A stretch of 64,000 nucleotides of DNA, taken from IMG/VR virus record IMGVR_UViG_3300034159_000059, one strand, 5' to 3'. The position numbers and the translations under genes were made by a program. The notes below the pieces were generated by a model. The model searched no databases, had not been told where the DNA came from, and was given only the letters and a program-made list of their open reading frames with translations. Numbering within the stretch: position 1 is the stretch's first letter; the number at the start of each line of letters is the position of its first letter. This DNA is from a virus. Below are positions 13,256-25,363 of this stretch, piece by piece.

Positions 13256-13261
13256 CAGTTT

Positions 13262-13647: not shown

Positions 13648-13737
13648 CTCTTGTGCAGCATTCTGGTAGGAACAGACACCGCGTGCGAGGTCGCCAAGCG
13701 GTGGTGGGTGCTACGCACGCGGGCGACGCGCGTGCGG

Positions 13738-14034: not shown

Positions 14035-14041
14035 TGAATAT

Positions 14042-14112
14042 CCCCCGGTAGCTCAGTGGTAGAGCAGTCGCTCGATAAGCGACAGGACCAGGTTCGACCC
14101 CTGGCCGGGGGA
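14042..14112 (+). tRNA. tRNA-Ile(GAT); loop TCGATAA has C at position 33
   Basis: acceptor CCCCCGG/CCGGGGG, anticodon stem GTCGC/GCGAC, T-arm CCAGGTTCGACCCCTGG. Confidence 0.65.
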
Positions 14113-14128
14113 TTTGGGGAGCGTTTAT

Positions 14129-14204
14129 GGAGACGTTCGTCTAGGGGTTAGGACACTGGTCTGTGGAACCGGCAACGCGAGTTCAAATCTCGCACGTCTC
14201 CCCA
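14129..14204 (+). tRNA. tRNA-His(GTG) with encoded G-1 and CCA
   Basis: G-1 pairs with C73; acceptor GAGACGT/ACGTCTC, anticodon arm CTGGT-CTGTGGA-ACCGG, T-arm GCGAGTTCAAATCTCGC, then CCCA. Confidence 0.8.
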
Positions 14205-14296
14205 TTTTTAACTCACTGCAAATATTCTCTCAGTGATGCGATAAGAGGATGCGAAGGAATTCTTCCTTTGCTTACCAGCAACTCACCGAGAGGGAC

Positions 14297-15739
14297 ATGG
14301 CTAATAACGTAATCAAGAAGATCCAGGACGTGGTGGCGACTCGGGGGGATGAGATGACCGACGCGCAGAAGCGCGAGATCGACGAGAACTATCGTCAGAT
14401 CGCGGAAGGGATCGCTGCGCGTGTCGAGGCGAAGGACCTGCCCAAGGTCGCCACCTGGCTCACGAAGATGAGCAAGGCGGCGGAGCAGGTTGTGTCCTTC
14501 CACGAGGCCTTCGACACCTTCCCGTTCGATGGCGCTGTCGCGTTCTTCAACGCGATGCAGGAGAAGTTCGGATTCGTCGAGCACCTGGCGCGGCAGTCCT
14601 TCTTCGGCTCGTCGCCGCCTCCGATGATCGGAGTCGAGATCGGGCCCGGCGAGACGGTCCAGGTCCCGTGGGGAGAGTTCGCTCTCCCCGGCTACGAAGA
14701 ACTCATCATCAGCGTCGGGACTCACGCCAACAAGGACGGGTTCCACTTCTGCATCTCCGGCCAGGTGAAGACCAAGGATCGGGATGTCGTCACCCAGATC
14801 GCCACACTCATCCGCAAGAACCTCAAGGAGAAGAGCATCTACAAGGGGAAGGCCATCCGCCTTCACTTCGACGAGGACTTCGATCCGGAGACGTACTCTC
14901 CGGACGACGTGGCACCGACCTTCCTCGATCTCTCGTCGATCAGCCCGGACGAGCTCATCCTGCCCGCCTCGGTGAAGAAGATGGTGCAGGACAGCCTCTT
15001 CACCCCGGTGGAGAAGACGGAGATGTGCCGGAAGTTCGGCATCCGAATCGGCCGCAAGGCCCTGCTCGCTGGCACCTACGGCGTCGGCAAGACGCTCACC
15101 GCCAACGTGCTGGCGCAGAAGGCCACCCAGCAGCCCCAGCCCTGGACGTTCATCTACCTGGACAACGTCCGTGACCTCGCGCACGGCCTCCGGATGGCCA
15201 AGCACTACACTCCGGCCATCATCTTCGCCGAGGACATCGATGCTGTGATGTCCGGGACGGAGCGGACCGACGAGATGAACGAGGTGCTCAACTCCATCGA
15301 CGGCATCGAGATCAAGGGCAAGGAGATCATGGTGGTCCTCACCACCAACCACGTCGAGCGCATCAACCAGGCCATGATCCGGCCCGGCCGCGTCGACGCT
15401 CTGATCGAGGTGACTCCGCCCGACGCCAAGGCGGCCGAGCAGCTCCTGCGGGTCTACGGCAAGAGCTTCATCGCCGCGACCGAGGATCTCAGCCAGGTCG
15501 GCAAGAGCCTGGACGGACAGCGGCCGGCGAGCATCGCGGAGGTCGTGGAGCGCTCCAAGCTCTCCGCCATCACGCGGCTCTCTCCTGGAGAGCCTCTCAG
15601 CATCACCCAGGAGGACCTGCTGAGCGCGAGCGAGAGCCTCAAGAAGCACATCGAGCTCGTCGATCGCAAGACGGTGGAAGAGCGGAAGAAGCCGAAGTCC
15701 AACGGTGTGGCCCACGGCGAGTCTCTCGCCGAGGCCTGA
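14297..15739 (+). CDS. AAA+ ATPase
   Basis: Walker A GTYGVGKT, Walker B IIFAEDID, sensor region LTTNHVERINQAMIRPGRVD; GAGAGGGAC SD. Confidence 0.8.
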   Translation: MANNVIKKIQDVVATRGDEMTDAQKREIDENYRQIAEGIAARVEAKDLPKVATWLTKMSKAAEQVVSFHEAFDTFPFDGAVAFFNAMQEKFGFVEHLARQSFFGSSPPPMIGVEIGPGETVQVPWGEFALPGYEELIISVGTHANKDGFHFCISGQVKTKDRDVVTQIATLIRKNLKEKSIYKGKAIRLHFDEDFDPETYSPDDVAPTFLDLSSISPDELILPASVKKMVQDSLFTPVEKTEMCRKFGIRIGRKALLAGTYGVGKTLTANVLAQKATQQPQPWTFIYLDNVRDLAHGLRMAKHYTPAIIFAEDIDAVMSGTERTDEMNEVLNSIDGIEIKGKEIMVVLTTNHVERINQAMIRPGRVDALIEVTPPDAKAAEQLLRVYGKSFIAATEDLSQVGKSLDGQRPASIAEVVERSKLSAITRLSPGEPLSITQEDLLSASESLKKHIELVDRKTVEERKKPKSNGVAHGESLAEA

Positions 15740-15744
15740 TTTCA

Positions 15745-15773
15745 GGAGGGGATGATCTTCATCCCCTCTTTTT
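15745..15773 (+). terminator. rho-independent terminator
   Basis: AGGAGGGGATGA-TCT-TCATCCCCTC followed by TTTTT. Confidence 0.7.
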
Positions 15774-15785
15774 AGCTAGTCGTTT

Positions 15786-15857
15786 GGGGGCTAATGCACA
15801 AGGTGTGCAGTCCGACTGTCTATCGGATGTCGACGGGTTCAATTCCCGTAGCCCTCG
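15786..15857 (+). tRNA. tRNA-Asp(GTC)-like (position 8 is A, purine-37 missing)
   Basis: acceptor GGGGGCT/AGCCCTC, anticodon arm TCCGA-CTGTCTA-TCGGA, T-arm GACGGGTTCAATTCCCGT. Confidence 0.5.
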
Positions 15858-15953
15858 CTCTCTACAAGTAAACTGACAGACTCGCGTGTCATAAGAAGGA
15901 TGCAGAGGTTTTACCCAAACCGCTGTTTCCTTTAACTCATACGAGGACATGAC

Positions 15954-16970
15954 ATGGTCACAAAGCGAAAGACCCCATCCCGGAACCGCGTCGAGCTCAC
16001 CGAAGAGATGAATGAGGTTCGGATCTACGCCTCTTCTGACCCTCTTCCGGAGCCCACTCGGATCGCGCAGGAGGCCAAGATCGCTGAGCTTCGCGAGAAG
16101 ACCGCCGGCATCTCGGTCGAGAGCGCGGTGAAGAAGCTCACGGACACTGGCCTCTCCGTCGGCAAGGCCATCGCCGACGTGCAAGCTACCATCGCCGCCC
16201 AGGTCACCGAGCTGGCCGAGATCCGCATGGCCATCGAGGAGGCCAAGAAGGATCTCGAAACGATCTACGGGAAGGAGGTCGCCGCTGCCTCGCTGGCCCA
16301 GCTCGTCGCCGACTTCGACGCCAAGAAGAAGGAGCTCGATGAGAGGGTTTCCACCTTCCAGGAGAACTGGGAGAAGCAGAAAGCCATCTACGCCAACCAG
16401 GAGGAAGACCGGGTGGAGGTGGAGCAGACGGCCCGGCAGCGTGAACAGTCCGACTACGTCTACCACCGCGACATGGAGCGTCGGGGGTTGACCGACAAGT
16501 TCAACCAGCAGCTCCAGGACGACAAGAGAATCGAGCTCATCCGGAAGAACGACCTGGAGCGGAGCTGGGCCGAGCGCGAGGCTCGTCTGAAGGCGCAGGA
16601 GGAAAGCGTCGCCCAGATGAAGGCTCGCATCGACGGTCTGCCTACCGAGATCGACTCGGCCGTGAAGAAGGAGGTCGCCATCGTCTCGAACTCCATCTCG
16701 CGCGAGCACAAGCACCAGGTCGAGATCCTCACCAAGGACTTCTCCGCGAAGGAGACCATCCTCGGCGCTCAGGTGGAGAACCTGAAGACGCAGCTCGCGA
16801 ACGCTCACGACACCATCGCCAACCTTTCCCAGCAGCTCAACTCGGCCCAGGAGAAGGTCGCCAAGATCGCCTCCGACGCCCTCAACGCCGCCTCTGGTAC
16901 GCAGGCTCTCGCCGAGATGCGCAACATCGTCAACTCCGGCGCGAACAACGGAGCGCAGAAGAAGTCGTAG
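15954..16970 (+). CDS. coiled-coil hypothetical protein
   Basis: 338 aa, A/E/K-rich heptad-like sequence, GAGGAC SD. Confidence 0.6.
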   Translation: MVTKRKTPSRNRVELTEEMNEVRIYASSDPLPEPTRIAQEAKIAELREKTAGISVESAVKKLTDTGLSVGKAIADVQATIAAQVTELAEIRMAIEEAKKDLETIYGKEVAAASLAQLVADFDAKKKELDERVSTFQENWEKQKAIYANQEEDRVEVEQTARQREQSDYVYHRDMERRGLTDKFNQQLQDDKRIELIRKNDLERSWAEREARLKAQEESVAQMKARIDGLPTEIDSAVKKEVAIVSNSISREHKHQVEILTKDFSAKETILGAQVENLKTQLANAHDTIANLSQQLNSAQEKVAKIASDALNAASGTQALAEMRNIVNSGANNGAQKKS

Positions 16971-16981
16971 TACAGGTCTCG

Positions 16982-17010
16982 ACAGCGTCTCTCCGAAGAG
17001 ACGCTGTTTC
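16982..17010 (+). terminator. terminator-like hairpin
   Basis: AGCGTCTC-TCCGAA-GAGACGCT then GTTTC. Confidence 0.45.
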
Positions 17011-17083
17011 GCCGCTTTAGCTCTGAGGGTCAGAGCGCCCGCCTGAAGAGCGGGAGAATTCGGTTCGATCCCGAGAGGCGGCA
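17011..17083 (+). tRNA. tRNA-Phe(GAA)
   Basis: acceptor GCCGCTT/AGGCGGC, anticodon arm CCCGC-CTGAAGA-GCGGG, T-arm TTCGGTTCGATCCCGAG. Confidence 0.8.
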
Positions 17084-17085
17084 CT

Positions 17086-17157
17086 GGGCTGATAGTGACA
17101 ATGGTAGAACGGCGCTTTCGCACGGCGCAGATCTGGGTTCGATTCCCAGTCGGTCCA
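17086..17157 (+). tRNA. tRNA-Ala(CGC)
   Basis: G3:U70 in acceptor GGGCTGA/TCGGTCC, anticodon arm GCGCT-TTCGCAC-GGCGC, T-arm CTGGGTTCGATTCCCAG; weak D stem. Confidence 0.6.
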
Positions 17158-17243
17158 TTCCTCTCTAGGTCGCCAGGATCATACCTGGCATAGCGTTCAG
17201 GGAGAGAGGCAAGCGGGATAGAGTGAACGTAGTCCCGTGTTTC

Positions 17244-17315
17244 GCCCGAGTAGTTCAGTGGCAGAACGCTGTCTTGACATGGCAGAAGTCGAAGGTTCGA
17301 TTCCTTCCTCGGGCA
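17244..17315 (+). tRNA. tRNA-Val(GAC)
   Basis: acceptor GCCCGAG/CTCGGGC, anticodon arm CTGTC-TTGACAT-GGCAG, T-arm GAAGGTTCGATTCCTTC. Confidence 0.8.
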
Positions 17316-17438
17316 CTCGCAGCACCTCTTTGAACCGTGACGCGGGCCGATAACCCGCCTCTCCGGGAATGGAGGGTCATCGCCTTGCGACGGTGACACG
17401 CTGCGAACCCATTTCCCCAAAGCATCAGGAGACGAACA

Positions 17439-17848
17439 TGGATGAGAGAGCATGGGCGGTTGGGTTGGCTCCTACCTACCAGAGGATGAGCAGGACGCAG
17501 ACGGACACTTTCGTCGTGGCGTCTATGGCTGAGGCCGTAGCCGAGGAAGATGTGCCAGAAGCCGAGGAAGCGTTCCTCGTCCAGGTCCTCAACAAGCGTA
17601 TCGAGGTCCACAACCTGCCGATCAGTTTTTCTGGACCGGCGAAGATGGCGGTGCTCGCTCTGACGGATCGACCGGGCTCTGTGGTCGCTCTTCTGATCGA
17701 TTGCCTCAACGCCTACGAAGGCCAGAAGGTCACCGTGGAGAAGCTGGCGGATCTTTACCCTACCGGCTTCTACGACGAGGACACTCTCATCCGCTACGCG
17801 GATCAGTACTTGAAGACGCGAAAGGTGAAGTGGTCTGATCTGTACTAG
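17439..17848 (+). CDS. hypothetical protein
   Basis: 136 aa, AGGAGACGAAC SD. Confidence 0.5.
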
Positions 17849-17855
17849 AAGCAGT

Positions 17856-17927
17856 GGGCTCTTCGTCTAGCGGTCTGGATGCTGCCTCGGCAAGGCAGAG
17901 GTACCGGTTCAACCCCGGTAGGGTCCA
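17856..17927 (+). tRNA. tRNA-Ala(GGC); loop TCGGCAA has C at position 33
   Basis: G3:U70 in acceptor GGGCTCT/AGGGTCC, anticodon stem CTGCC/GGCAG, T-arm ACCGGTTCAACCCCGGT. Confidence 0.65.
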
Positions 17928-17942
17928 TCTACAAGGAGACAA

Positions 17943-18582
17943 CATGAGCTTCAAACTCTACGAAGCCTATAGGCTGAAGCCTGGAGTAGATCTCTGGGAG
18001 TTCGTTCACGACGTTCGGATCAAGGCTCAGAGACGAGCCGGGAGGATCCTTCGCACGGTGTATACGTCCCTGTTGCAAGACGCAGAGACGAACAAGAAGA
18101 TGAGGGAGGAGATCCTCAAGGCTTATTCACAAGGTCGTGAAATCCCTGACAGGCCTGTCGGAGCGGTAGACTGCGCTTGCTGGGTGCGAGAGAAGTACAA
18201 GCAGGCCTCTATCTCTCCCCGTAGGGATAAATTTGACCTCGACGTCTCGATCTCCTTCAGAAAGTACAAGCGCCACTGGTACATCATCCCATTCCCCGGA
18301 TCCGGCCTATTCAACAATGTACTTTCGTTCATGCGGAAGGATCCGAGACTGGAGGAGTACCACTATCAGAACCAGACGGATAAGAGCGCCAAATACTCGA
18401 ACCGAGAGTGGGGGCGAAGGAGGAAGATCTGGTTCTACCTCATGGACTACCTCAAGAACGAAGATCGCGAAGGAGACCAGCTCTGCTTGGCCATCTGCAA
18501 GCATGACATGTTCACTAAAGTCGACCCTTCCCTAGCCATGTTTCAAGAACGGCACAAGAGGAAGAGGCGCAAGAAGAAGTGA
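17943..18582 (+). CDS. hypothetical protein with basic C-terminus
   Basis: 213 aa, CAAGGAGACAAC SD. Confidence 0.55.
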
Positions 18583-18590
18583 CGTAGGAC

Positions 18591-18666
18591 GGGCCTATAG
18601 CTCCAACGGTAGAGCAGCGCCTTTGCAAGGCGACGGTTGCCGGTTCAAGTCCGGCTGGGTCCACCA
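18591..18666 (+). tRNA. tRNA-Ala(TGC), CCA encoded
   Basis: G3:U70 in acceptor GGGCCTA/TGGGTCC, anticodon loop TTTGCAA, T-arm GCCGGTTCAAGTCCGGC, then ACCA. Confidence 0.75.
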
Positions 18667-18668
18667 CT

Positions 18669-18739
18669 GCCTCCACAGCTCGAAGGTAGAGCACATCCTT
18701 GGTAAGGATGAGGTCTGGGTTCGATTCCCAGTGGAGGCT
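18669..18739 (+). tRNA. tRNA-Thr(GGT)
   Basis: acceptor GCCTCCA/TGGAGGC, anticodon arm CATCC-TTGGTAA-GGATG, T-arm CTGGGTTCGATTCCCAG. Confidence 0.75.
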
Positions 18740-18755
18740 CTGAGAGGAGATGAGG

Positions 18756-19001
18756 ATGTTGCTTCCGAAACCAGAGTGTAGCTGCGGCTTCACGAAGAAG
18801 CAGATCGTGGGAATCATGGGGCTCCGAACGGAGGAGTTCTGGGACTGGATGCGGAACCAGACCGTGATGCTCTGTGACGGCAAGGAGTACAACCACGCGG
18901 AGAAGAGGTATCAAGTGGTTTGTGATGGAGTCGCCCACGGCACCGTCATCTACCAGAGGGACGTGGAACGCTTCCTTGCAGGTCTCCCTGTTCGCGACTG
19001 A
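18756..19001 (+). CDS. hypothetical protein
   Basis: 81 aa, GAGAGGAGATGAGG SD. Confidence 0.45.
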   Translation: MLLPKPECSCGFTKKQIVGIMGLRTEEFWDWMRNQTVMLCDGKEYNHAEKRYQVVCDGVAHGTVIYQRDVERFLAGLPVRD

Positions 19002-19165
19002 GGGCACTGTGGCCGAAAGACCGCTCGAATGGTGGGAAGAAGAGCAGCTCAGGCTCCTTGAGGCCGCGAGTGTTCATCACGGGATCGACATCACAAAGGA
19101 CCTCCAGCGTTTTCGGGAACACCCGGACGAGTGGAGAGCCTTCCGAGAAAAGCTGAATGAGCCAT

Positions 19166-19239
19166 CTCCCCGTAGCTCAACGGATCAGAGCACTTGACTA
19201 CGGATCAAGAGGCTGAGAGTTCGAATCTCTCCGGGGAGT
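19166..19239 (+). tRNA. tRNA-Arg(ACG)
   Basis: acceptor CTCCCCG/CGGGGAG, anticodon arm CTTGA-CTACGGA-TCAAG, T-arm GAGAGTTCGAATCTCTC. Confidence 0.75.
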
Positions 19240-19247
19240 CCAATCAT

Positions 19248-19321
19248 ACCCCTGTAGCTCAGTGGATGAGAGCGCTGGTTTCCGAAACCAGAGGCCGCAG
19301 GTTCAAGTCCTGCCAGGGGTA
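19248..19321 (+). tRNA. tRNA-Arg(CCG)
   Basis: acceptor ACCCCTG/CAGGGGT, anticodon arm CTGGT-TTCCGAA-ACCAG, T-arm GCAGGTTCAAGTCCTGC. Confidence 0.75.
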
Positions 19322-19324
19322 CTT

Positions 19325-19397
19325 GCTCTCGTGGCCCAATGGACAAGGCAGCGGTTTCCTAAACCGCAGACTGCTGGTTCGAATCCAGCCGAGAGCG
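19325..19397 (+). tRNA. tRNA-Arg(CCT)
   Basis: acceptor GCTCTCG/CGAGAGC, anticodon arm GCGGT-TTCCTAA-ACCGC, T-arm GCTGGTTCGAATCCAGC. Confidence 0.75.
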
Positions 19398-19494
19398 TCA
19401 AGCACGGTGCCTGTGGACTAAGGCGGGCACACTGGAGGAGGACCTGCCGACTAAGCCACAAGGGTCCCTCCCACAAGTTGATATGGAGACTCAG

Positions 19495-19707
19495 ATGCCA
19501 AAGAAAGTTCTCGTCTACTTCAAGGCCATGACAGACGGAGATGAGAATCTCAGCAAGGTCGTCGAGGCTACAGAAGATGAGTGGAGAGCTCTCAAGCGCA
19601 CCGAGGGAGCCGAGGAAGATCTCTTCGACAAGGTGTACAAGCGTAGAGGTATCAACTGTACGATCGAGGAGCTGAAGAAGATTTCTCGACGTATTCCGAT
19701 GGTATGA
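19495..19707 (+). CDS. hypothetical protein
   Basis: 70 aa, ATGGAGACTCAG SD. Confidence 0.45.
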   Translation: MPKKVLVYFKAMTDGDENLSKVVEATEDEWRALKRTEGAEEDLFDKVYKRRGINCTIEELKKISRRIPMV

Positions 19708-19714
19708 TGGTTGA

Positions 19715-19800
19715 CGCGGGGTCGTCTAGCGGTCGAGGACATCGGGCTCATAACCCGAAAGGCGCAAGCCTCATCGTGAGTTCAAATCTCACCCCCGCAA
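19715..19800 (+). tRNA. initiator tRNA-fMet(CAT) with 17-nt variable region carrying a GNRA hairpin
   Basis: 5' CGCGGGG and 3' CCCCGCAA (C1xA72 mismatch), anticodon arm TCGGGCTCATAACCCGA with three G:C pairs, all identical to E. coli tRNA-fMet; variable region AAGGCGCAAGCCTCATC instead of 5 nt. Confidence 0.75.
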
Positions 19801-19815
19801 CTTTTGGAGAAGTAC

Positions 19816-20025
19816 ATGGCCGACTACAAAGTGGAGCTGGATCTAACAGCAGGAGAGTTGGTAGCTCTTGGGTACGTAGTCATGAAAGGCTACATGGCGG
19901 CGAAGGAGAGCGAAGACGTCTGCCTCCCCGACATCAGAACTCTGTCGGACAAGATCACCGCTCTCATGGGAGGGGTCTCGCCCTTACCTGTGAAGGAAGA
20001 AACCAAGCGGATCGTGGAGCTGTGA
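19816..20025 (+). CDS. small protein with C-terminal KRIVEL tag
   Basis: 69 aa, GGAGAAGTAC SD; ends ...VKEETKRIVEL. Confidence 0.5.
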   Translation: MADYKVELDLTAGELVALGYVVMKGYMAAKESEDVCLPDIRTLSDKITALMGGVSPLPVKEETKRIVEL

Positions 20026-20027
20026 CA

Positions 20028-20099
20028 CAGTGAGCTGGCCGATTGGTAAGGCACTCGCCCCATAAGCGAGATCATTCGGGTTCAAATCCCGAGCTCACT
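20028..20099 (+). tRNA. tRNA-Met/Ile2(CAT); loop CCCATAA has C at position 33
   Basis: A1:U72 acceptor AGTGAGC/GCTCACT, anticodon stem CTCGC/GCGAG, T-arm TCGGGTTCAAATCCCGA. Confidence 0.6.
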
Positions 20100-20101
20100 A
20101 C

Positions 20102-20176
20102 CCGAGGAGAGTGGAGCTGGTGACCCCGGCTGTCCCACACACAGCCTCTCGCTGGGTTCGATTCCCAGTCCTCGGA
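20102..20176 (+). tRNA. tRNA-like, anticodon uncertain (6-bp anticodon stem, loop CCCACAC, weak D arm)
   Basis: acceptor CCGAGGA/TCCTCGG, stem GGCTGT/ACAGCC, T-arm CTGGGTTCGATTCCCAG; followed (20177-20215) by an orphan second T-arm CAAGGTTCGATTCCTTG. Confidence 0.3.
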
Positions 20177-20671
20177 CTGAAAGCGTCGCAAGGTTCGATT
20201 CCTTGGGCGCGGACTCTTCATCGCGGGATGTTGGCCTAAAAGCAGCCATCATTCAAAGAGTGGACAAAGGCAGGAAGTCGTTGGGGAGAAAGCTACTTGC
20301 GAAGCACCCTGTAGAATGTCGCAAGGGGAGAAGGCCAGTCAGGGACGGACGGGCAGGATCAAGGCTCATAGAGACTGGGAACCCGTGAACCGCTAATGCT
20401 GTGACACTGGCAACCGAAACACGAATCCTGGGAGCACCGGGGCAAGTCGGGCTAGACCCGATTTCTTTCAAGTGTCCGAGAGCGCCCTCTGGCGCAAGGC
20501 TCGGCTTCTCTGATCCTCAAGACCTGACGGGCCCGTCGGGAACGAGGCTGGGTCGGCTCCATTGGGGAGTCCGATAAGTCAGAGACTCGGCACGAAGAAC
20601 GTCTCAGAAGCGTTCGGAAGGAATCCTTTGGCGTAATAGCACACCTCGATGAAGAAACTTACGGAGGAAGC

Positions 20672-20938
20672 GTGGCGAGACGAGAGAGGGAGAAGCTACC
20701 TCTCCAGGAATTCTTCGACCTGAAGCCTGGAGACGTATTCACCGTCTACTATGCAAAGGACGATGATCCAACGGATGTCCGCTTTGAGTATGAGACCAGG
20801 AAGGTCCTCTCGAACAAGGGGGGGAGGATCTCCGACGATGAGGGGGACATCTGGGGGCAGGCTGGGCAGGAACGTATGGACCGAAACGACAACCAGTTCG
20901 ACATGAGTCGAGGCCATGCTCACCTCTACAAAGCTTAG
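20672..20938 (+). CDS. hypothetical acidic protein
   Basis: 88 aa, GTG start 6 nt after GGAGGA. Confidence 0.45.
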   Translation: MARREREKLPLQEFFDLKPGDVFTVYYAKDDDPTDVRFEYETRKVLSNKGGRISDDEGDIWGQAGQERMDRNDNQFDMSRGHAHLYKA

Positions 20939-20945
20939 GAGCACA

Positions 20946-21026
20946 GGTCCAGTGGCGGAATGGTAGACGCGCACGGCTCAGGACCGTGTGGGTAACACCG
21001 TGAGAGTTCGAATCTCTCCTGGACCA
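20946..21026 (+). tRNA. tRNA-Leu(CAG)
   Basis: acceptor GGTCCAG/CTGGACC, anticodon arm CACGG-CTCAGGA-CCGTG, extended variable arm, T-arm GAGAGTTCGAATCTCTC. Confidence 0.7.
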
Positions 21027-21108
21027 TGGGTCCCGAAAACTTCGGAGTAGTCGATGTTTCGGCATCGCACGAAAAGTCGTGAGTAGGGATCCTTCTTTTG
21101 GAGAAGCT

Positions 21109-21417
21109 ATGACTGAAAAAGAGATACAAGAAGGCATCGATTGGATCAGGGCTAGACCGAAAGCTATCCGTGAGCTCATGGTCAAGTTTCCTCCCTCCTG
21201 TCGAGTACGAGCTCTGCGTCCTCTTCGCACTCCATCTCCAGGCAAAGAAGGAGTGGTCATCTCCTACATCGAGAACGAGATGGGACCTCCTTCTCTTCGC
21301 GTCCAAGAACCAGACGGCGAAGTCGCGGCAGAGTGCCTTCCGGAGTGGTTGGAAGTGGTTGGTTACTGGGAACACGCGACTCCGGAGTTCGTGAAGCTCG
21401 CTATCGAAGGGCTGTAG
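21109..21417 (+). CDS. hypothetical protein
   Basis: 102 aa, TTGGAGAAGCT SD. Confidence 0.45.
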   Translation: MTEKEIQEGIDWIRARPKAIRELMVKFPPSCRVRALRPLRTPSPGKEGVVISYIENEMGPPSLRVQEPDGEVAAECLPEWLEVVGYWEHATPEFVKLAIEGL

Positions 21418-21423
21418 AAGTTT

Positions 21424-21506
21424 GCTCGGGTGGCGTAATGGTAGCCGCGCTGGCTTGAGGTGCCAGTGGTCGAAAGATCGTGAGGGTTCGAATCCCTCCC
21501 CGAGTA
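21424..21506 (+). tRNA. tRNA-Leu(GAG)
   Basis: acceptor GCTCGGG/CCCGAGT, anticodon arm CTGGC-TTGAGGT-GCCAG, long variable arm, T-arm GAGGGTTCGAATCCCTC. Confidence 0.75.
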
Positions 21507-21510
21507 CTTT

Positions 21511-21592
21511 GGCCGCGTGGCGGAACTGGTAGACGCGCTGGACTTAGGATCCAGTGCCGAAAGGCGTGAGGGTTCGATTCCCTCTGTGGCCA
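21511..21592 (+). tRNA. tRNA-Leu(TAG)
   Basis: acceptor GGCCGCG/TGTGGCC, anticodon arm CTGGA-CTTAGGA-TCCAG, long variable arm, T-arm GAGGGTTCGATTCCCTC. Confidence 0.75.
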
Positions 21593-21612
21593 CATCTTCT
21601 CTGGAGACAACC

Positions 21613-22092
21613 ATGAGCCGATCCAACAAATCTCGGAACAGCACTCGTACCAAGAGGTGGAAGGATACCGTGAGGGAGAGCCGCACCCAGGTTCGCAGTC
21701 GTGCGAAGTGGAAGAAGGTCACGAAGAACAGCCCGAAGAAGACCGGTGGATCTCGCGTCCCTCAGAAGCCGACTCCGAAGAAGATGACGGAACGAGAGCT
21801 GGTAGCGGAGGGGTTGGCCAACAACGCCACGGCCGAGATCATGGCGCAGTTCATGAAACGAGAGACGCCTATGCTACGCAAGTTCGGACCCAAGGCAGCA
21901 GGACATCCCTCGATCGGGGAACCGTGCCCGGCCTGCAAGGTGCCTTTCAAGGTTGGGGACTACACAGCACTGATCCCCCTCGGACCTGGGGATGATCCAG
22001 AAGAGCAGCAGAAGGCACGAGAGAAGAAGCCGTACACTGCGGTGGCAGTCGAGGTTCACTACGACTGCGCCGACCCACACACGCCCGAGTAG
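21613..22092 (+). CDS. basic hypothetical protein with C-terminal CxxC
   Basis: 159 aa, K/R-rich N-terminus; CTGGAGACAACC SD. Confidence 0.5.
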   Translation: MSRSNKSRNSTRTKRWKDTVRESRTQVRSRAKWKKVTKNSPKKTGGSRVPQKPTPKKMTERELVAEGLANNATAEIMAQFMKRETPMLRKFGPKAAGHPSIGEPCPACKVPFKVGDYTALIPLGPGDDPEEQQKAREKKPYTAVAVEVHYDCADPHTPE

Positions 22093-22158
22093 CGGAACTG
22101 GTAGACGCGGCTGGCTCAAACCCAGTGTCTCTTGAGAGTTCGAATCTCTCCTCGGGTA
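22083..22158 (+). tRNA. tRNA-Leu(CAA)-like with short (7-nt) variable region
   Basis: acceptor GCCCGAG/CTCGGGT, A73 discriminator, anticodon arm GCTGG-CTCAAAC-CCAGT, T-arm GAGAGTTCGAATCTCTC. Confidence 0.6.
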
Positions 22159-22203
22159 CCATTCGTAGTACAACCGTAGCCAAGAAAGGAGGGCGTCGCG
22201 CCC

Positions 22204-22749
22204 ATGGACACACTGGTCCTATCGCACGCTTACGAGCCCGTCGCCCATGTTCCGTGGCAACGGGCCATCACCTTGCTCTTCGAGGGCAAGGTGGAGGTCG
22301 TTGAGGAGTACGAGAACCGCTCTGTTCGTTCGGTGACCTTGGAGATCAAGATCCCCGCCGTCATCCGATTTCTTCGAGCAGTCCACAGCAGGAAGAGGGC
22401 CATCAAGTTCTCTCGTGAGAACGTGTACGCCCGAGACAGTGGACGCTGTCAGTACTGCAACAAGAGGGTTCCTCGTCCCGAGGCCACCTACGACCACGTC
22501 ACTCCACGCTCTCAGGGTGGCCAAACGACGTGGGAGAACGTGGTCATCGCATGCACTCCGTGTAACCAGAGGAAGGGCGGGCGGACTCCGCAGCAGGCCA
22601 AGATGCATCTGCTCTCGGTTCCGGTGAGACCGAAGAAGCTGCCGAACACGTTCCGCCTCACGTTCACGGTGGACAGGAACATCCCAGACGCCTGGAAGCA
22701 GTGGCTCGCCTCATACCACTACTGGCAGGATGAGCTGGAGCAGGGATGA
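22204..22749 (+). CDS. HNH homing endonuclease
   Basis: CQYCNKRVPRPEATYDHVTPRSQGGQTTWENVVIACTPCNQRKG HNH motif; AAAGGAGGG SD. Confidence 0.7.
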   Translation: MDTLVLSHAYEPVAHVPWQRAITLLFEGKVEVVEEYENRSVRSVTLEIKIPAVIRFLRAVHSRKRAIKFSRENVYARDSGRCQYCNKRVPRPEATYDHVTPRSQGGQTTWENVVIACTPCNQRKGGRTPQQAKMHLLSVPVRPKKLPNTFRLTFTVDRNIPDAWKQWLASYHYWQDELEQG

Positions 22750-23045
22750 TTCAAGAACTCATCGATGCTGAGATCGACCGGCTAGCCAAAGAGTTCGGCC
22801 CGCCCAAGAATGACATCGAAGAGATCATGGTACGTAGACGGCTCTTCAACATCCAAAGCGAGGATCTCATCGGCCAAGTCGTCGATGAGATCCTCACCAA
22901 GGTGCGCAAGCGTACTGTCTCTGTCGTCGTAAGCCAGTGCATGCGCTACAAGAACCTCGACCCCACCATCGTCGAGCGTGTGGTTCGTAGAAAGTTGGAG
23001 GTTGAGCCATGTGTACTCGATACATCAACAAGGTTGCCACTCTGA
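22746..23045 (+). CDS. hypothetical protein
   Basis: 99 aa, ATGA overlap with upstream stop. Confidence 0.45.
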   Translation: MIQELIDAEIDRLAKEFGPPKNDIEEIMVRRRLFNIQSEDLIGQVVDEILTKVRKRTVSVVVSQCMRYKNLDPTIVERVVRRKLEVEPCVLDTSTRLPL

Positions 23046-23218
23046 CCTGCTGTCAGTGTGGTAGGACCAGCCCTCTCTTCAGCACCATTCAGTGCTCCTG
23101 CGGGCACAAGGCGTGCCCTCTAGTCCTCGATACGTTGGAGCTGGACGAGAAGATGCTGGAGAGGATGATTCGTAGAGTCTTGGAGAGTGAACCGGCTGGG
23201 CAGCCGGCATCGCCATGA
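23009..23218 (+). CDS. small Cys-rich (zinc-ribbon-like) protein
   Basis: CCQCG...CSCGHKAC; GGAGG SD; overlaps upstream ORF. Confidence 0.35.
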   Translation: MCTRYINKVATLTCCQCGRTSPLFSTIQCSCGHKACPLVLDTLELDEKMLERMIRRVLESEPAGQPASP

Positions 23219-23682
23219 TGAAGGTAATACAGAGGCTGTGTGGAAACTGTGGGATTTCTTTCCTTGCTATCGGAAAGTACCCTCGTCAGTACTGTAGCGA
23301 TGTCTGCTCAAGATCCATCGGAAGCACCAAGCAGCAGCAAGACATCTACGAAAAGTACATTCGTAGCTGGAAAGCTGGAGAGGTAGACGGCAGCAAAGGG
23401 TGTAACCAGATCTCCGGCCACATCCGCCGCTACCTCTTCGAGAAGTACAACAGCAAGTGCTGCAAATGTGGATGGGGAGAGACTAACCCGCACACAGGGA
23501 AGATCCCGTTGGAGGTCGAACACATCGATGGGAATTGGCAGAACAACAAGGAAGAGAATCTCCTCTTGCTCTGCCCGAACTGCCACTCCCTGACACCAAC
23601 ATATAGGGCTCTAAACAAGGGCCACGGCAGACCAGTACGACGTATGGAGAGTGAAGCTCGCATGGGCGAGCCGCCCGTTTGA
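23215..23682 (+). CDS. HNH homing endonuclease
   Basis: CCKCGWGETNP...LEVEHIDGNWQNN...LLLLCPNCH HNH motif. Confidence 0.7.
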   Translation: MMKVIQRLCGNCGISFLAIGKYPRQYCSDVCSRSIGSTKQQQDIYEKYIRSWKAGEVDGSKGCNQISGHIRRYLFEKYNSKCCKCGWGETNPHTGKIPLEVEHIDGNWQNNKEENLLLLCPNCHSLTPTYRALNKGHGRPVRRMESEARMGEPPV

Positions 23683-23823
23683 AGCGGGATGGAGCCCTCC
23701 GGGGCTTGGGGATCGGGCCCTCCTCTCTCCGCCACATTCGTCCCTGATGCGGTAACCAGCCCGCCGTGTTTGGAATCAGGGATGAAGCAGGGCGCCTCAG
23801 CCTGTGATCTGAGGCACTTTCAT

Positions 23824-23908
23824 GGAAAGCGTAGTCGGAGTGGTCCGACACCGGTCTCGAAAACCGGGCATGGCTTCGGCTGTGAGGGTTCGACTCCCTA
23901 GCTTTCCG
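23824..23908 (+). tRNA. tRNA-Ser(CGA)
   Basis: type II: acceptor GGAAAGC/GCTTTCC, anticodon arm CCGGT-CTCGAAA-ACCGG, long variable hairpin GGCTTCGGCT. Confidence 0.7.
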
Positions 23909-23911
23909 TTT

Positions 23912-24001
23912 GGAGCCAGCAGACCGGGAGGGTCCCGGCACCAGCTTGGAACGCTGGTCATCGCGCAAGCGGTGGAGGTTCGATCCCTCATGGCTCCGCC
24001 A
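23912..24001 (+). tRNA. tRNA-Ser(GGA), CCA encoded
   Basis: type II: acceptor GGAGCCA/TGGCTCC, anticodon arm CCAGC-TTGGAAC-GCTGG, variable hairpin CGCGCAAGCG, then GCCA. Confidence 0.7.
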
Positions 24002-24005
24002 ACCT

Positions 24006-24074
24006 CCCCAGGCCTGGTGGTCGGATGCTCGACGCGCAACGAGCAGGTTCGTTCAACGCGAACCCTGGGGGCCA
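24006..24074 (+). tRNA. tRNA-like with 8-nt anticodon loop (ACGCGCAA), CCA encoded; identity unknown
   Basis: acceptor CCCCAGG/CCTGGGG, stem GCTCG/CGAGC, T-arm GTTCG-TTCAACG-CGAAC, then GCCA; reduced D arm. Confidence 0.3.
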
Positions 24075-24344
24075 CACCGCGTAGGAGACGACGATGGAAG
24101 AGGGTCAAAAGACTCGACGTTGGAAGTCCTTCCGACGCCTGATGCCGACCGCCCCAGACTGGGAATACGGGCTCTGGATCTCATCGAAGTGGAAAGAGTT
24201 CGCCAACTCCAAGGGAGTGATGAAGTCGTTTGACTCAAGCTATTTCAACGCTCTCATGCTGACAGACCAGTACTGGTTCAACCTCGACAAGCTCCAGAAC
24301 GACTTCGACGATTGGCTGGAGCAGCTTCCAAGAACGGAAACGCC

Positions 24345-24815
24345 ATGCGAGTGCTCTTCCTCGACGACATGAAGATTCGCCACGAAGCCTACGCGAAAAC
24401 CCACATCGGCCAGGACACCGTGTACGTCTTCACGGCAAAAGAGGCGAAGGACGTGCTCGACAACCAGCCGCGTTTTGACCGAGCCCAGCTAGACCACGAC
24501 CTCGCCGAGGAGCATTACTTGGAGCTCTCCGAGGGCCTTTACGAGAGCGCGCAGCACTCTCCCACCTGCCTCGTTTCTCAAGGGCACGTCTACGCATGCA
24601 CCTGCGGAGCGCAGGAAGACGCCTACAAGACGAAGAAGCTCGTCGGCACTGGGATGGACGTCGTCGACCACATCGTGGCCATGGATCCCTACAAGCGTCC
24701 CAGGTACGTGATCATCCACTCTTACAACGAGAGGGGTGCCGAGATGCTGCGACGTCTCAAAGACGCCGGCGTCCCATCCGTCTGGATCCGTTTCGATCCC
24801 AAGAGCACTTTCTAG
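24345..24815 (+). CDS. hypothetical protein
   Basis: ORF 24312-24815; ATG 24345 chosen; overlaps the 3' end of ORF 24094-24372, whose frame is also open. Confidence 0.4.
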   Translation: MRVLFLDDMKIRHEAYAKTHIGQDTVYVFTAKEAKDVLDNQPRFDRAQLDHDLAEEHYLELSEGLYESAQHSPTCLVSQGHVYACTCGAQEDAYKTKKLVGTGMDVVDHIVAMDPYKRPRYVIIHSYNERGAEMLRRLKDAGVPSVWIRFDPKSTF

Positions 24816-24824
24816 GAGCACACG

Positions 24825-24903
24825 GTCGGGAGGGCCCCGACACTCGCCTGCTAAACGAGTCACTCCGCAAGGGGTGCCGGTTCGATCCCGGGGTGCTCCG
24901 CCA
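24825..24903 (+). tRNA. tRNA-Ser(GCT), CCA encoded
   Basis: acceptor GGAGCAC/GTGCTCC, anticodon loop CTGCTAA, long variable arm, T-arm GCCGGTTCGATCCCGGG, then GCCA. Confidence 0.7.
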
Positions 24904-24916
24904 TTCAGGAGACGAC

Positions 24917-25201
24917 ATGAAGAAGACCAAGAAGAGAGAAATCGGTAGGCTAGTGATAGGGCTCCACCTCTTCACCGGGCCAGCTCACTCTGCTGCTTGC
25001 CGAGCCATCTACCGAGTCGACTTCTCAGATGGCTCGACAGAGACAGTGTCTGGTCTCTCCGTAATGTCCCTGACGCACCCACAACGCAAGGATGATCCAC
25101 ACGCGCGTCCGGATCTGTATGCGGTACTGGAGGCGGCTCTACCTCTGGCCAAAGAGCTAGAGAATGCCTGTGTCAAAGCAGACGGCGTGCATATCAAGTA
25201 A
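24917..25201 (+). CDS. hypothetical protein
   Basis: 94 aa, AGGAGACGAC SD. Confidence 0.5.
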   Translation: MKKTKKREIGRLVIGLHLFTGPAHSAACRAIYRVDFSDGSTETVSGLSVMSLTHPQRKDDPHARPDLYAVLEAALPLAKELENACVKADGVHIK

Positions 25202-25209
25202 AGCCAGAC

Positions 25210-25283
25210 GCTCCCGTAGTTCAGTTGGATAGAACGTTGGCCTTCTAAGCCAAATGTCGCAGGTTCGAGTCCTGCCGGGAGCG
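25210..25283 (+). tRNA. tRNA-Arg(TCT)
   Basis: acceptor GCTCCCG/CGGGAGC, anticodon arm TTGGC-CTTCTAA-GCCAA, T-arm GCAGGTTCGAGTCCTGC. Confidence 0.8.
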
Positions 25284-25363
25284 CTTCGTCACTGCTATTC
25301 GGCTTCAAGAAGGGCCCGAGAGAAACTCCTCGGGCCCTTTCTCTTTAACCCAGGAGAGATCCG

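What the first reader, a model, noticed from the sequence alone, without database searches (positions are those of the whole stretch)
19715..19800. Initiator tRNA with a hairpin inserted into the variable loop
The acceptor arm (CGCGGGG...CCCCGCAA, C1xA72) and the whole anticodon arm (TCGGGCTCATAACCCGA) are identical to E. coli tRNA-fMet. The variable region is 17 nt (AAGGCGCAAGCCTCATC, a GGC-GCAA-GCC GNRA hairpin) instead of the usual 5 nt. An initiator tRNA with a type-II-like extra arm is unusual. The insertion might alter recognition by host factors or anticodon nucleases while preserving initiator identity elements.
Basis: seen in the sequence. Interest (0 to 1): 0.65.

Follow-up and report, generated by a model that had tools for sequence, protein, structure and literature searches.

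The report
Phage initiator tRNA with extra arm
A huge bacteriophage encodes a start-codon (initiator) tRNA that carries a small extra hairpin arm, and the same oddity recurs in over a hundred other phage sequences but was found in almost no cellular genome.

Summary
Window 19715-19800 (+) is an 86-nt tRNA(CAU), called by ARAGORN and by Rfam (55.1 bits). Its acceptor stem (C1xA72, A73) and whole anticodon arm are identical to E. coli tRNA-fMet. Its variable region is 17 nt: A + AGGC-GCAA-GCCU hairpin + CAUC.

It is not a one-off. An initiator-type anticodon arm followed by a long variable region occurs in 58 IMG/VR loci and at least 120 metagenome loci. These give 124 unique tRNAs: 74% have a 1:72 mismatch, 85% have a variable-region hairpin, and 47% have GNRA loops. 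The stems covary.

The same scan of 185,579 species genomes gave only introns, assembly artefacts and two phage-like MAG contigs. Similar mini-arms also occur on 4-9% of other class-I phage tRNAs, including tRNAs of the cultured Brevundimonas phages Kikimora and Gurke. No paper describing this was found.

Best reading: a working phage initiator tRNA, a new structural variant of a known kind. What the arm does is not shown. Evasion of agents that target tRNA, or discrimination from the host tRNA, is plausible and fits the RtcB/RlaP RNA-repair genes in the window. A tolerated neutral insertion is the main rival. One initiator hallmark, A11:U24, is absent (U11:A24).

The parts
19715..19800 (+). 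tRNA gene, initiator type (tRNA-fMet-like), 86 nt, no encoded CCA
   Evidence: ARAGORN; Rfam tRNA 55.1 bits; fold; alignment with E. coli tRNA-fMet; tail is A|CTTTTG
19715..19721 (+). acceptor stem 5' strand CGCGGGG; C1 is unpaired opposite A72
   Evidence: (the 1:72 pair is marked non-standard)
19724..19740 (+). D arm: GTCT / AGCGGTCGA / GGAC; pair 11:24 is U:A
19742..19758 (+). anticodon arm TCGGG CTCATAA CCCGA with three consecutive G:C pairs; anticodon CAT at 19749-19751
19759..19775 (+). 17-nt variable region: A + hairpin + CATC
19760..19771 (+). variable-arm hairpin AGGC-GCAA-GCCT: 4 bp and a GNRA tetraloop; this is the 12-nt insertion relative to class I initiators
19776..19792 (+). T arm GTGAG TTCAAAT CTCAC
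19793..19800 (+). acceptor stem 3' strand CCCCGCA plus discriminator A73
4993..25284 (+). context: array of 43 tRNA genes that contains the target, interspersed with small ORFs, two HNH endonucleases, an RlaP nucleotidyltransferase and a deaminase
40480..41661 (+). context: RtcB RNA ligase, part of a phage RNA-repair gene set
   Evidence: PF01139, 408.7 bits

Best explanation
This is a genuine, probably functional initiator tRNA gene of a huge phage. It belongs to a recurrent, virus-restricted structural class: initiator tRNAs with a short, structured, class-II-like variable arm.

Shown by the sequence. The tRNA keeps the elements that established work assigns to methionylation by MetRS (CAU, A73), to formylation by Met-tRNA formyltransferase (unpaired 1:72, G2:C71, C3:G70), and to P-site/IF3 selection (three G:C pairs in the anticodon stem). 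The 12-nt GNRA-capped hairpin sits after position 44. It leaves four 3' nucleotides (CAUC, ending in C48) available for the tRNA core. This layout matches the phage's own tRNA-Leu arms.

Inferred. The hairpin stays in the mature tRNA and projects into solvent as in tRNA-Leu. Because an initiator enters the P site directly, the arm would cost little. The tRNA would be charged with Met, formylated, and used to start translation, supplementing or replacing the host initiator during infection.

The role of the arm is inferred at about 35%. It would make the phage tRNA physically different from the host tRNA-fMet, so that it escapes something that acts on the host molecule. That could be a host toxin or nuclease that targets initiator tRNA, or phage-induced depletion of host tRNA. 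If not that, the arm is a tolerated or stabilising insertion.
For: It is a real tRNA with initiator features.

The class recurs. 58 IMG/VR loci give 51 unique sequences. At least 120 metagenome loci add 76 more. Pooled, there are 124 unique tRNAs. Of these, 92 have a 1:72 mismatch, 20 have A-U or U-A, 102 have discriminator A, 105 have a variable-region hairpin, and 58 have GNRA loops. The modal layout is 1 nt + hairpin + 3 nt.

The hairpin is under structural selection. Variable-region MFE averages -2.9 against -0.73 kcal/mol for shuffles, and 46-50% fall in the best 5% of their own shuffles. RNAalifold predicts the variable-arm helix on its own, with 5, 7 and 3 sequences showing double-sided changes at its three pairs.

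The class is virus-restricted. The same pattern in 185,579 species genomes gave 30 hits. These were archaeal introns, N-masked or duplicated assemblies, read-through of normal tRNAs, and two short phage-like MAG contigs.

Twelve loci carry this tRNA as their only tRNA. Codon-usage compensation cannot explain that for an initiator.

It is not an assembly artefact. The near-identical arm AAGGCGAAAGCCTTCATC occurs in the complete genomes of the cultured phages Kikimora and Gurke.

The context is consistent with conflict over tRNA: 43 tRNAs, a tmRNA, RlaP, RtcB and a 3'-5' exoribonuclease. The phage's own tRNA-Leu arms share the layout. Long arms are reported to clash with the A-site finger during A-to-P translocation, a step that an initiator skips (review PMC11231383).
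Against: There are no expression, charging or formylation data. A11:U24, a hallmark of bacterial initiators, is replaced by U11:A24. The same replacement occurs in 20 of 124 long-arm initiators and 5 of 72 normal-length ones.

The arm is not specific to initiators. Similar mini-arms occur on Thr, Asn, Ile, Lys, Cys, Trp, Pro, Val, Glu, Asp and Gly tRNAs: 37 of 423 in loci with a long-arm initiator and 17 of 419 in loci with a normal one. This fits a general property of phage tRNAs, or relaxed constraint, as well as it fits an initiator-specific role.

Compensatory changes show only that the insert must stay folded, not that it is useful. RNA-repair genes are not enriched next to long-arm initiators in the short loci available, and no conserved protein partner was seen.

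The closest arm relative, in Kikimora, has G1-C72 and C73, so it is not an initiator by the 1:72 rule. From my own recollection, at least some VapC toxins recognise the anticodon stem-loop alone; if so, an extra arm would not protect against them.
Confidence: 0.68

Rival explanations
1. The arm is a tolerated, essentially neutral insertion. The variable region is the one place in a tRNA that accepts extra nucleotides, and phage tRNA genes evolve fast under weaker constraint. Once inserted, the sequence only has to remain a compact hairpin so that it does not disturb folding. On this view the tRNA still works as an initiator but the arm does nothing.
For: Mini-arms are scattered over many isoacceptors at 4-9%. 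Arm sequences cannot be aligned between lineages, and D-arm types differ, which suggests repeated gains. No conserved neighbouring gene was found. Many phages keep a normal-length initiator-like tRNA as well.
Against: The feature is essentially absent from 185,579 cellular species genomes, although bacterial tRNAs face the same mutational opportunities. There is a strong bias towards stable GNRA tetraloops and a fixed 1 + hairpin + 3 layout. The arm persists with compensatory changes within lineages. Twelve loci carry this tRNA as their only tRNA.
Confidence: 0.3
2. The molecule is not used for initiation. It is a tRNA-like decoy or sponge that binds and neutralises a host factor directed at tRNA-fMet, or it is an elongator tRNA-Met that happens to have an initiator-like anticodon stem.
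For: Pair 11:24 is of the elongator type, U:A. The Kikimora and Gurke relatives with almost the same arm have G1-C72 and lie next to a normal initiator. Many long-arm phages also carry a normal-length initiator-like tRNA.
Against: The window's copy has the C1xA72 mismatch, which by established knowledge prevents EF-Tu use and directs formylation. The acceptor stem is identical to E. coli tRNA-fMet. The window already has an elongator-like tRNA-Met at 10530 and no other initiator in its 43-tRNA array. 74% of the class keep a 1:72 mismatch.
Confidence: 0.1
3. The 12-nt hairpin is a mini-intron. It is cut out and the halves are rejoined, for example by the phage RtcB ligase, leaving a normal 5-nt variable loop (ACAUC).
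For: Removing the hairpin would leave a canonical 4-5-nt loop in most members, given the 1 + hairpin + 3-4 layout. The window encodes RtcB. Archaeal initiator genes with introns in this region turned up in the genome scan.
Against: There is no bulge-helix-bulge motif around the hairpin (by inspection). No splicing endonuclease was found among the 40 window ORFs scanned. Known bacterial tRNA introns are group I introns of hundreds of nucleotides in the anticodon loop (PMC4033280). The same layout is the normal, retained arm of the phage's tRNA-Leu. RtcB is not found next to other members.
Confidence: 0.04
4. The extra arm switches amino-acid identity, so that LeuRS, SerRS or TyrRS charges the tRNA and AUG is read with another amino acid, as with nematode nev-tRNAs.
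For: The arm resembles the tRNA-Leu arm in layout, and the discriminator is A73 as in tRNA-Leu. nev-tRNAs are a precedent for a variable arm on a class I anticodon being charged with Leu (PMC4033280).
Against: The acceptor stem, the 4-bp D stem and G15:C48 are initiator-like rather than Leu-like. There is no G73 or long arm as SerRS requires. The CAU anticodon is the dominant MetRS determinant. These three points rest on established identity rules and on my own knowledge. The arm has only 4 bp.
Confidence: 0.03
5. It is a sequencing or assembly artefact, or a dead gene.
For: Many cellular hits to the search pattern were artefacts, such as tandem AGGTC duplications and N-masked stretches.
Against: The insert is not a duplication of flanking sequence and folds into a GNRA hairpin. 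The class recurs in independent assemblies and in complete genomes of cultured phages. All four canonical stems are intact.
Confidence: 0.02

Closest known systems
Bacterial initiator tRNA (tRNA-fMet; E. coli metZWV/metY)
   Same: CAU anticodon, C1xA72 mismatch, A73, G2:C71, C3:G70, three G:C pairs at 29-31:39-41, and T loop TTCAAAT. The acceptor stem and the whole anticodon arm are identical to the E. coli gene.
   Different: The variable region is 17 nt with a 4-bp GNRA hairpin instead of 5 nt. Pair 11:24 is U:A instead of A:U. No CCA is encoded. The gene is phage-borne.
Class II (type II) bacterial tRNAs: Leu, Ser, Tyr; especially short-armed tRNA-Leu
   Same: A structured variable arm laid out as 1 nt + 3-5 bp + tetraloop + 3-4 nt. 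The window's own tRNA-Leu(GAG) and tRNA-Leu(UAG) arms are U-GGUC-GAAA-GAUC-GUG and U-GCC-GAAA-GGC-GUG.
   Different: The anticodon and acceptor stem are those of an initiator. The D stem has 4 bp and the Levitt pair is G15:C48, rather than the tRNA-Leu core.
[quoted passage not shown]
   Same: A long variable arm on a tRNA whose anticodon belongs to a class I amino acid.
   Different: nev-tRNAs are eukaryotic and derive from Leu/Ser tRNAs. They carry Leu/Ser identity elements and are charged with Leu or Ser. Here the body is an initiator with an arm added, and it is found in phages.
Phage tRNAs that escape anticodon nucleases by anticodon-loop changes (van den Berg 2023, PMC10264068)
   Same: A phage-encoded copy of a host tRNA that differs from it at a site that could affect recognition by defence nucleases. 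The window shows an RNA-repair and arms-race context.
   Different: Those changes are point substitutions in the anticodon loop. That paper states that phages generally avoid encoding tRNA-fMet where VapC-LT2 targets it. Here the anticodon loop is unchanged and the difference is an added arm. Protection has not been demonstrated.
Archaeal tRNA genes with non-canonical introns in or near the variable region
   Same: Extra nucleotides between the anticodon stem and the T stem of an initiator gene. Vulcanisaeta, Jordarchaeia and other archaeal hits are examples.
   Different: Those inserts are longer, are removed at bulge-helix-bulge motifs by the archaeal splicing endonuclease, and are cellular. 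No such motif or enzyme is seen here.

Membership tests
tRNA (Rfam RF00005) | Cloverleaf covariance-model score above the gathering threshold | tested here: met
   55.1 bits against a threshold of 29, full-length match 1-71, with the insertion in the variable region
Bacterial initiator tRNA (tRNA-fMet) | CAU anticodon | tested here: met
   ARAGORN anticodon CAT at 19749-19751
Bacterial initiator tRNA (tRNA-fMet) | No Watson-Crick pair at 1:72 | tested here: met
   C1 opposite A72, flagged as non-standard by cmscan; identical to E. coli
Bacterial initiator tRNA (tRNA-fMet) | Three consecutive G:C pairs at 29-31:39-41 | tested here: met
   TCGGG/CCCGA
Bacterial initiator tRNA (tRNA-fMet) | Formyltransferase and MetRS acceptor determinants: A73, G2:C71, C3:G70 | tested here: met
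   CGCGGGG...CCCCGCA-A is identical to E. coli. That these positions are the determinants is from established knowledge, not tested here.
Bacterial initiator tRNA (tRNA-fMet) | Purine11:pyrimidine24 (A11:U24) | tested here: not met
   U11:A24. A:U occurs in 13 of 15 aligned long-arm relatives, 55 of 124 pooled, and 50 of 72 normal-length initiators; U:A occurs in 20 of 124 and 5 of 72.
Bacterial initiator tRNA (tRNA-fMet) | Class I architecture (4-5-nt variable loop) | tested here: not met
   17-nt variable region. This is the feature that makes it a variant.
Bacterial initiator tRNA (tRNA-fMet) | Profile similarity to initiators rather than to other tRNAs | tested here: inconclusive
   A covariance model built here from 42 normal-length initiators behaved as a generic tRNA model; the target scored 55.5 bits and ranked 9th. 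Pairwise matching ranks it first of 43, but that metric favours longer sequences.
Bacterial initiator tRNA (tRNA-fMet) | Charged with Met, formylated, and used at start codons | not testable with these tools
   Needs biochemistry or in vivo assays
Class II tRNA (Leu/Ser/Tyr) | Variable region over 10 nt forming a stem-loop | tested here: met
   17 nt, 4 bp plus a GCAA loop
Class II tRNA (Leu/Ser/Tyr) | Leu, Ser or Tyr anticodon and matching acceptor/core identity elements | tested here: not met
   CAU anticodon, initiator acceptor stem, 4-bp D stem, G15:C48
Intron-containing tRNA gene (archaeal BHB type or bacterial group I) | Bulge-helix-bulge motif at the insert boundaries, or a group I intron fold | tested here: not met
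   The 12-nt insert is a simple hairpin with no flanking 3-nt bulges. No intron family was found by Rfam in 19650-20250 at E<=1.
Phage long-variable-arm initiator class (defined here) | Initiator-type anticodon arm plus a 12-25-nt variable region with a hairpin, in a viral context | tested here: met
   The window tRNA fits the modal layout of 124 unique members. Viral context comes from the tRNA array, a GH108 lysin, HNH endonucleases and homology to huge-phage records.

The most novel reading that the evidence does not exclude
The extra arm is the handle of a phage-private initiation system. The phage, or a host defence triggered by infection, inactivates the host's class I tRNA-fMet. The arm-bearing phage initiator is spared, or is specifically recognised by a phage factor, so translation initiation continues on the phage's terms. 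More broadly, mini variable arms would mark a 'phage-type' tRNA pool that is distinguishable from host tRNAs. This would be a new axis of the tRNA arms race and a natural orthogonal initiator scaffold.
Probability: 0.15. Interest if true: 0.85.

Novelty: new variant of a known kind. Interest (0 to 1): 0.62.

Why it matters
Initiator tRNA is among the most conserved RNAs in bacteria, and textbooks restrict long variable arms to Leu, Ser and bacterial Tyr (plus Sec).

This work shows an initiator with a structured extra arm that recurs in more than a hundred distinct phage sequences yet is practically absent from cellular genomes. That points to a virus-specific solution to some problem at translation initiation or in tRNA survival. 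Codon usage cannot explain a phage-borne initiator.

If the arm protects against nucleases or toxins that target initiator tRNA, it adds a new mechanism to the phage-host conflict over tRNA.

If it is simply tolerated, it shows that MetRS, formyltransferase, IF2/IF3 and the P site accept a class II initiator. That would be useful for engineering tagged or orthogonal initiator tRNAs.

The window's acceptor stem and anticodon arm are identical to E. coli tRNA-fMet, so the question can be tested directly in E. coli. Related arms exist in the cultured phages Kikimora and Gurke.

Tried and rejected
1. Megablast of the 2-kb neighbourhood against GenBank phages found no match. The phage is known only from metagenome assemblies. 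Its RtcB protein lies on 0.2-1 Mb contigs, and its nearest records are LR756500/501/503 at about 40% amino-acid identity.

2. Three scans for close relatives of this particular tRNA found nothing: the D-arm-specific pattern in metagenomes, the arm-specific pattern in viral contigs, and the window's type in the general scans. Lineage-specific conservation could therefore not be tested.

3. A covariance model built from 42 normal-length initiators was meant as an initiator-membership test. After entropy weighting it behaved as a generic tRNA model and did not separate initiators from elongators. I treat this as inconclusive.

4. I looked for RNA-repair genes (RtcB, RlaP, MVP-like and others) next to other long-arm initiators. 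There was no enrichment: one MVP-like hit in 178 loci, against several RlaP/RtcB hits in the 120 control loci.

5. I looked for a conserved partner gene in loci where the long-arm initiator is the only tRNA. The neighbours were only ordinary phage genes: a sigma factor, DNA methylases and an antirepressor.

6. The idea that the hairpin is a dispersed palindromic repeat was rejected, because it is unique in the window.

7. The intron idea was rejected for lack of a bulge-helix-bulge motif or an endonuclease.

8. Eight literature searches found no description of phage initiators with long arms. The library lacks most subscription-journal papers, so prior description cannot be excluded.

9. No promoter-like or terminator-like site was found around the gene. 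It is probably co-transcribed with its neighbours.

Full report
**1. The observation**

Window 19715-19800 (+) reads CGCGGGG TC GTCT AGCGGTCGA GGAC A TCGGG CTCATAA CCCGA AAGGCGCAAGCCTCATC GTGAG TTCAAAT CTCAC CCCCGCA A.

- ARAGORN calls it tRNA-Met(CAT), 87 nt.
- The Rfam tRNA model scores it 55.1 bits against a threshold of 29. The match is full length with a 13-nt insertion in the variable region, and the 1:72 pair is flagged as non-standard.
- Folded alone, it gives the cloverleaf plus a fifth hairpin in the variable region: -34.3 kcal/mol, z = -3.2 against shuffles.
- Aligned with an annotated E. coli initiator gene, the 7-nt acceptor strands, the discriminator and the whole 17-nt anticodon arm are identical. 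The only length difference is one clean 12-nt block.
- The variable region is A + AGGC-GCAA-GCCU + CAUC: a 4-bp stem capped by a GNRA tetraloop, followed by four unpaired nucleotides ending in C48.
- The 12-mer is unique in the window, so it is not a dispersed repeat.
- The gene lies between two small same-strand ORFs (19483-19707 and 19804-20025). It has no nearby promoter-like or terminator-like site.
- It does not encode CCA. Neither do 32 of the 43 tRNAs in the window.

It omitted one point: pair 11:24 is U:A rather than the A:U typical of bacterial initiators.

**2. Context**

The window is part of a huge phage.

- It holds 43 tRNA genes at 4.9-25.3 kb and a tmRNA at 44273-44651.
- It encodes a GH108 lysin and two HNH endonucleases inside the tRNA array.
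- An 851-aa major-vault-protein-like protein has as its only GenBank phage relatives the 462-735 kb 'uncultured phage' records LR756500/501/503, at about 40% identity.
- The window's RtcB protein is found on assemblies of 0.2-1 Mb.
- RNA-repair-type genes are prominent: an RlaP nucleotidyltransferase inside the array (11647-12612), DUF4419, a YspA-SLOG protein, an Rv2179c-like 3'-5' exoribonuclease, AAA ATPases, the MVP-like protein, and RtcB at 40480-41661.

The array has two other CAU tRNAs. One is elongator-like with G1-C72 (10530). The other has A1-U72 and an odd CCCAUAA loop (20029). No normal-length initiator was found. Only the initiator carries a non-canonical long arm.

**3. Is it a one-off?**

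No. A blastn search of GenBank phages with the tRNA hit an 89-nt tRNA-Met in the cultured Brevundimonas phages Kikimora and Gurke. That tRNA has a nearly identical anticodon arm and arm sequence (AAGGCGAAAGCCTTCATC).

I then scanned for an initiator-type anticodon arm followed by 19-32 nt before the T loop (GGGCTCATAACCCN{19,32}TTCRAATC).

- IMG/VR gave 58 loci, which parse into 51 unique tRNAs.

Pooled after removing three artefact-like entries, there are 124 unique tRNAs.

| Feature | Count of 124 |
|---|---|
| 1:72 mismatch (U.U 51, C.U 21, C.A 11, others) | 92 |
| Weak A-U or U-A at 1:72 | 20 |
| G-C or C-G at 1:72 | 11 |
| Discriminator A | 102 |
| Variable region folds into a hairpin | 105 |
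| Hairpin loop is GNRA (GAAA 38, GCAA 9, GUAA 8) | 58 |

The variable regions are 12-25 nt long. The modal layout is 1 nt + 3-5 bp + tetraloop + 3 nt.

The hairpins are more stable than shuffles: mean -2.9 against -0.73 kcal/mol, with about half in the best 5% of their own shuffles. The stems differ in sequence between lineages (GGC/GCC, CCC/GGG, GCC/GGC, UUGC/GUGA, UCUCU/GGGGA and others).

RNAalifold on 15 members, using a sequence-only MAFFT alignment, recovers the four canonical stems plus the variable-arm helix. Double-sided changes occur in 5, 7 and 3 sequences at the three variable-arm pairs.

**4. Is it viral?**

The same pattern in one genome for each of 185,579 bacterial and archaeal species returned only 30 loci. 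On inspection they fall into five groups:

- archaeal initiator genes with introns;
- tandem AGGTC duplications;
- N-masked stretches in MAG assemblies;
- normal initiators followed by a chance TTCRAATC downstream;
- two short MAG contigs (L071, L080) whose tRNAs look like the phage type.

I found no convincing chromosomal bacterial initiator with a structured long arm.

There is a caveat. I did not measure how many genomes carry a normal initiator matching the same anchors. That nearly all bacteria carry such an initiator rests on general knowledge.

**5. Not restricted to initiators**

ARAGORN on the fetched loci shows the same kind of mini-arm (1 nt + 3-4 bp + GAAA-like loop + 3-4 nt) on tRNAs for Thr, Asn, Ile, Lys, Cys, Trp, Pro, Val, Glu, Asp and Gly. 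The rates among non-Met class-I-type tRNAs of 82 nt or more are:

- 37 of 423 in loci with a long-arm initiator;
- 17 of 419 in loci with a normal initiator.

Further examples are three tRNA-Lys genes of LR756502 and the tRNA-Cys of Kikimora. The window's own tRNA-Leu arms have the same layout.

The initiator case is therefore the most striking instance of a broader habit of phage tRNAs. Any explanation specific to initiators must be weighed against a general one.

**6. Further patterns**

- Many long-arm phages also carry a normal-length initiator-like tRNA. It often has only two G:C pairs in the anticodon stem.
- Twelve loci carry the long-arm initiator as their only tRNA. Codon-usage compensation cannot explain that for a start-codon tRNA.
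- The Kikimora and Gurke tRNA with almost the same arm has G1-C72, C73 and an encoded CCA, and lies beside a normal initiator. It is probably an elongator or has another role.

**7. How it most likely works**

Shown by the sequence. All sequence determinants that established work assigns to initiator function are present:

- CAU and A73 for MetRS;
- unpaired 1:72, G2:C71 and C3:G70 for formyltransferase;
- three G:C pairs for P-site/IF3 selection.

The hairpin is placed so that four 3' nucleotides remain for core tertiary contacts, as in tRNA-Leu.

Inferred. The mature tRNA keeps the arm, is methionylated and formylated, and initiates translation. The arm should cost little, for two reasons. 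Class II tRNAs fit the P site. The reported clash of long arms with the A-site finger occurs during A-to-P translocation (review PMC11231383), a step that an initiator never takes.

Why the arm exists is not shown. My preferred reading, at about 35%, is that it makes the phage initiator physically distinct from the host's, so that it escapes a nuclease, toxin or depletion process aimed at tRNA-fMet. Three points bear on this:

- Initiator tRNA is a known toxin target (VapC-LT2; cited in PMC10264068).
- That paper notes that phages usually avoid encoding tRNA-fMet where the anticodon itself is attacked.
- This phage invests heavily in tRNA supply and RNA repair.

The main rival, at about 30%, is a tolerated insertion that must merely stay folded. 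Against it stand the near-absence from cells, the strong GNRA bias and fixed layout, and the single-tRNA loci. For it stand the spread across isoacceptors, the lack of a conserved partner gene, and the coexisting normal initiators.

Less likely readings are a decoy or elongator role, excision of the hairpin as a mini-intron, an identity switch as in nev-tRNAs, and an artefact. Section 10 and the rival explanations give the reasons.

**8. Comparison with known kinds**

It works like, and by sequence criteria is, a bacterial-type initiator tRNA. It departs from that family in two features: class I architecture and A11:U24. It shares the arm architecture of short-armed class II tRNAs but none of their identity elements.

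The nearest conceptual precedents are nematode nev-tRNAs and phage tRNAs that evade anticodon nucleases through loop substitutions. nev-tRNAs carry a variable arm on a class I anticodon but have a Leu/Ser body and Leu/Ser charging. The window tRNA matches neither precedent.

Eight full-text searches found no description of phage initiator tRNAs with long variable arms. GenBank annotates the Kikimora and Gurke genes simply as tRNA-Met. The library lacks most subscription-journal papers, so novelty is likely but not certain.

**9. Verdict**

It is a new structural variant of a known kind, and it belongs to a sizeable, apparently undescribed, virus-restricted class.

Interest is moderate to high (0.62). 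A tRNA specialist would be surprised. The question is directly testable in E. coli, because the acceptor and anticodon arms are identical to the host's. However, the function of the arm is unproven and may be neutral.

**10. What led nowhere**

- There is no near-identical phage record.
- No close relatives of this exact tRNA were found.
- My initiator covariance model did not discriminate initiators from other tRNAs.
- RNA-repair genes are not co-located with other long-arm initiators.
- No conserved neighbour gene was found.
- No promoter-like or terminator-like site was found.

Noticed in passing
window 4993-5068 (+): A tRNA with anticodon CUA, which ARAGORN labels 'tRNA-Pyl'. It is an amber-suppressor-type tRNA at the head of the array, and suggests possible UAG readthrough or recoding in this huge phage. 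Rfam tRNA score 42.9 bits.
   Followed up: no
window 9817-9887 (+) and 12731-13255 (+): A tRNA-His with the unusual anticodon AUG (A34) and an apparent 8-bp acceptor stem. A cytidine/adenosine-deaminase-family ORF (PF00383) lies inside the tRNA array and might edit A34 of this tRNA or of tRNA-Arg(ACG) at 19166.
   Followed up: no
window 20029-20102 (+): The third CAU tRNA has A1-U72 and the anticodon loop CCCAUAA, so C33 replaces the near-universal U33. It may be a tRNA-Ile2 (lysidine) type or an atypical Met tRNA.
   Followed up: partly
window 11647-12612, 28256-31115, 32936-34555, 37809-41661 (+): A phage-borne set of RNA-repair-type genes: RlaP nucleotidyltransferase, DUF4419, YspA-SLOG, Rv2179c-like 3'-5' exoribonuclease, AAA ATPase, an 851-aa major-vault-protein-like protein, and RtcB ligase.
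   Followed up: partly
window 44273-44651 (+): A phage-encoded tmRNA (Rfam RF00023, 114 bits). ARAGORN did not report it.
   Followed up: no
window 22204-22749 and 23215-23682 (+): Two HNH endonuclease ORFs lie between tRNA genes in the array. They may be homing endonucleases that shuffle tRNA genes.
   Followed up: no
L001 190-459; L214 20024-20110; many loci among L005-L062: Mini variable arms (3-4 bp plus a GAAA-type loop) occur on phage tRNAs for class I amino acids: three tRNA-Lys in LR756502, tRNA-Cys in Kikimora, and Thr, Asn, Ile, Trp, Pro, Val, Glu, Asp and Gly tRNAs elsewhere. They make up 4-9% of class-I-type tRNAs in the sampled phage loci.
   Followed up: partly
L017 1536-1608, L030 812-884, L047 6541-6613, L019 5174-5247, L043 4130-4203, L060 1327-1400 and others: Many phages with a long-arm initiator also carry a second, normal-length initiator-like tRNA. 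It often has only two G:C pairs in the anticodon stem (ttagg/cctag). Two initiator types in one phage remain unexplained.
   Followed up: partly
L214 23413-23487 (Kikimora): A tRNA-Ser(GCU) of only 75 nt with a 5-nt variable loop. This is the reverse case: a Ser anticodon on a class I body.
   Followed up: no
L064, L072, L075-L078, L081, L085, L090, L091 (genome contigs): Initiator tRNA genes in many MAG and draft assemblies show tandem duplications of the AGGTC variable loop or short N-masked runs at that spot. This looks like a recurrent assembly or masking artefact at a highly conserved multi-copy gene.
   Followed up: partly
L271 5437-8184 and 1242-1281: A 9-kb metagenome contig (SDBT01025391.1) carries a long-arm initiator within 6 kb of an MVP-like protein that is 27-31% identical to the window's. 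It may be a distant relative of this phage clade.
   Followed up: no
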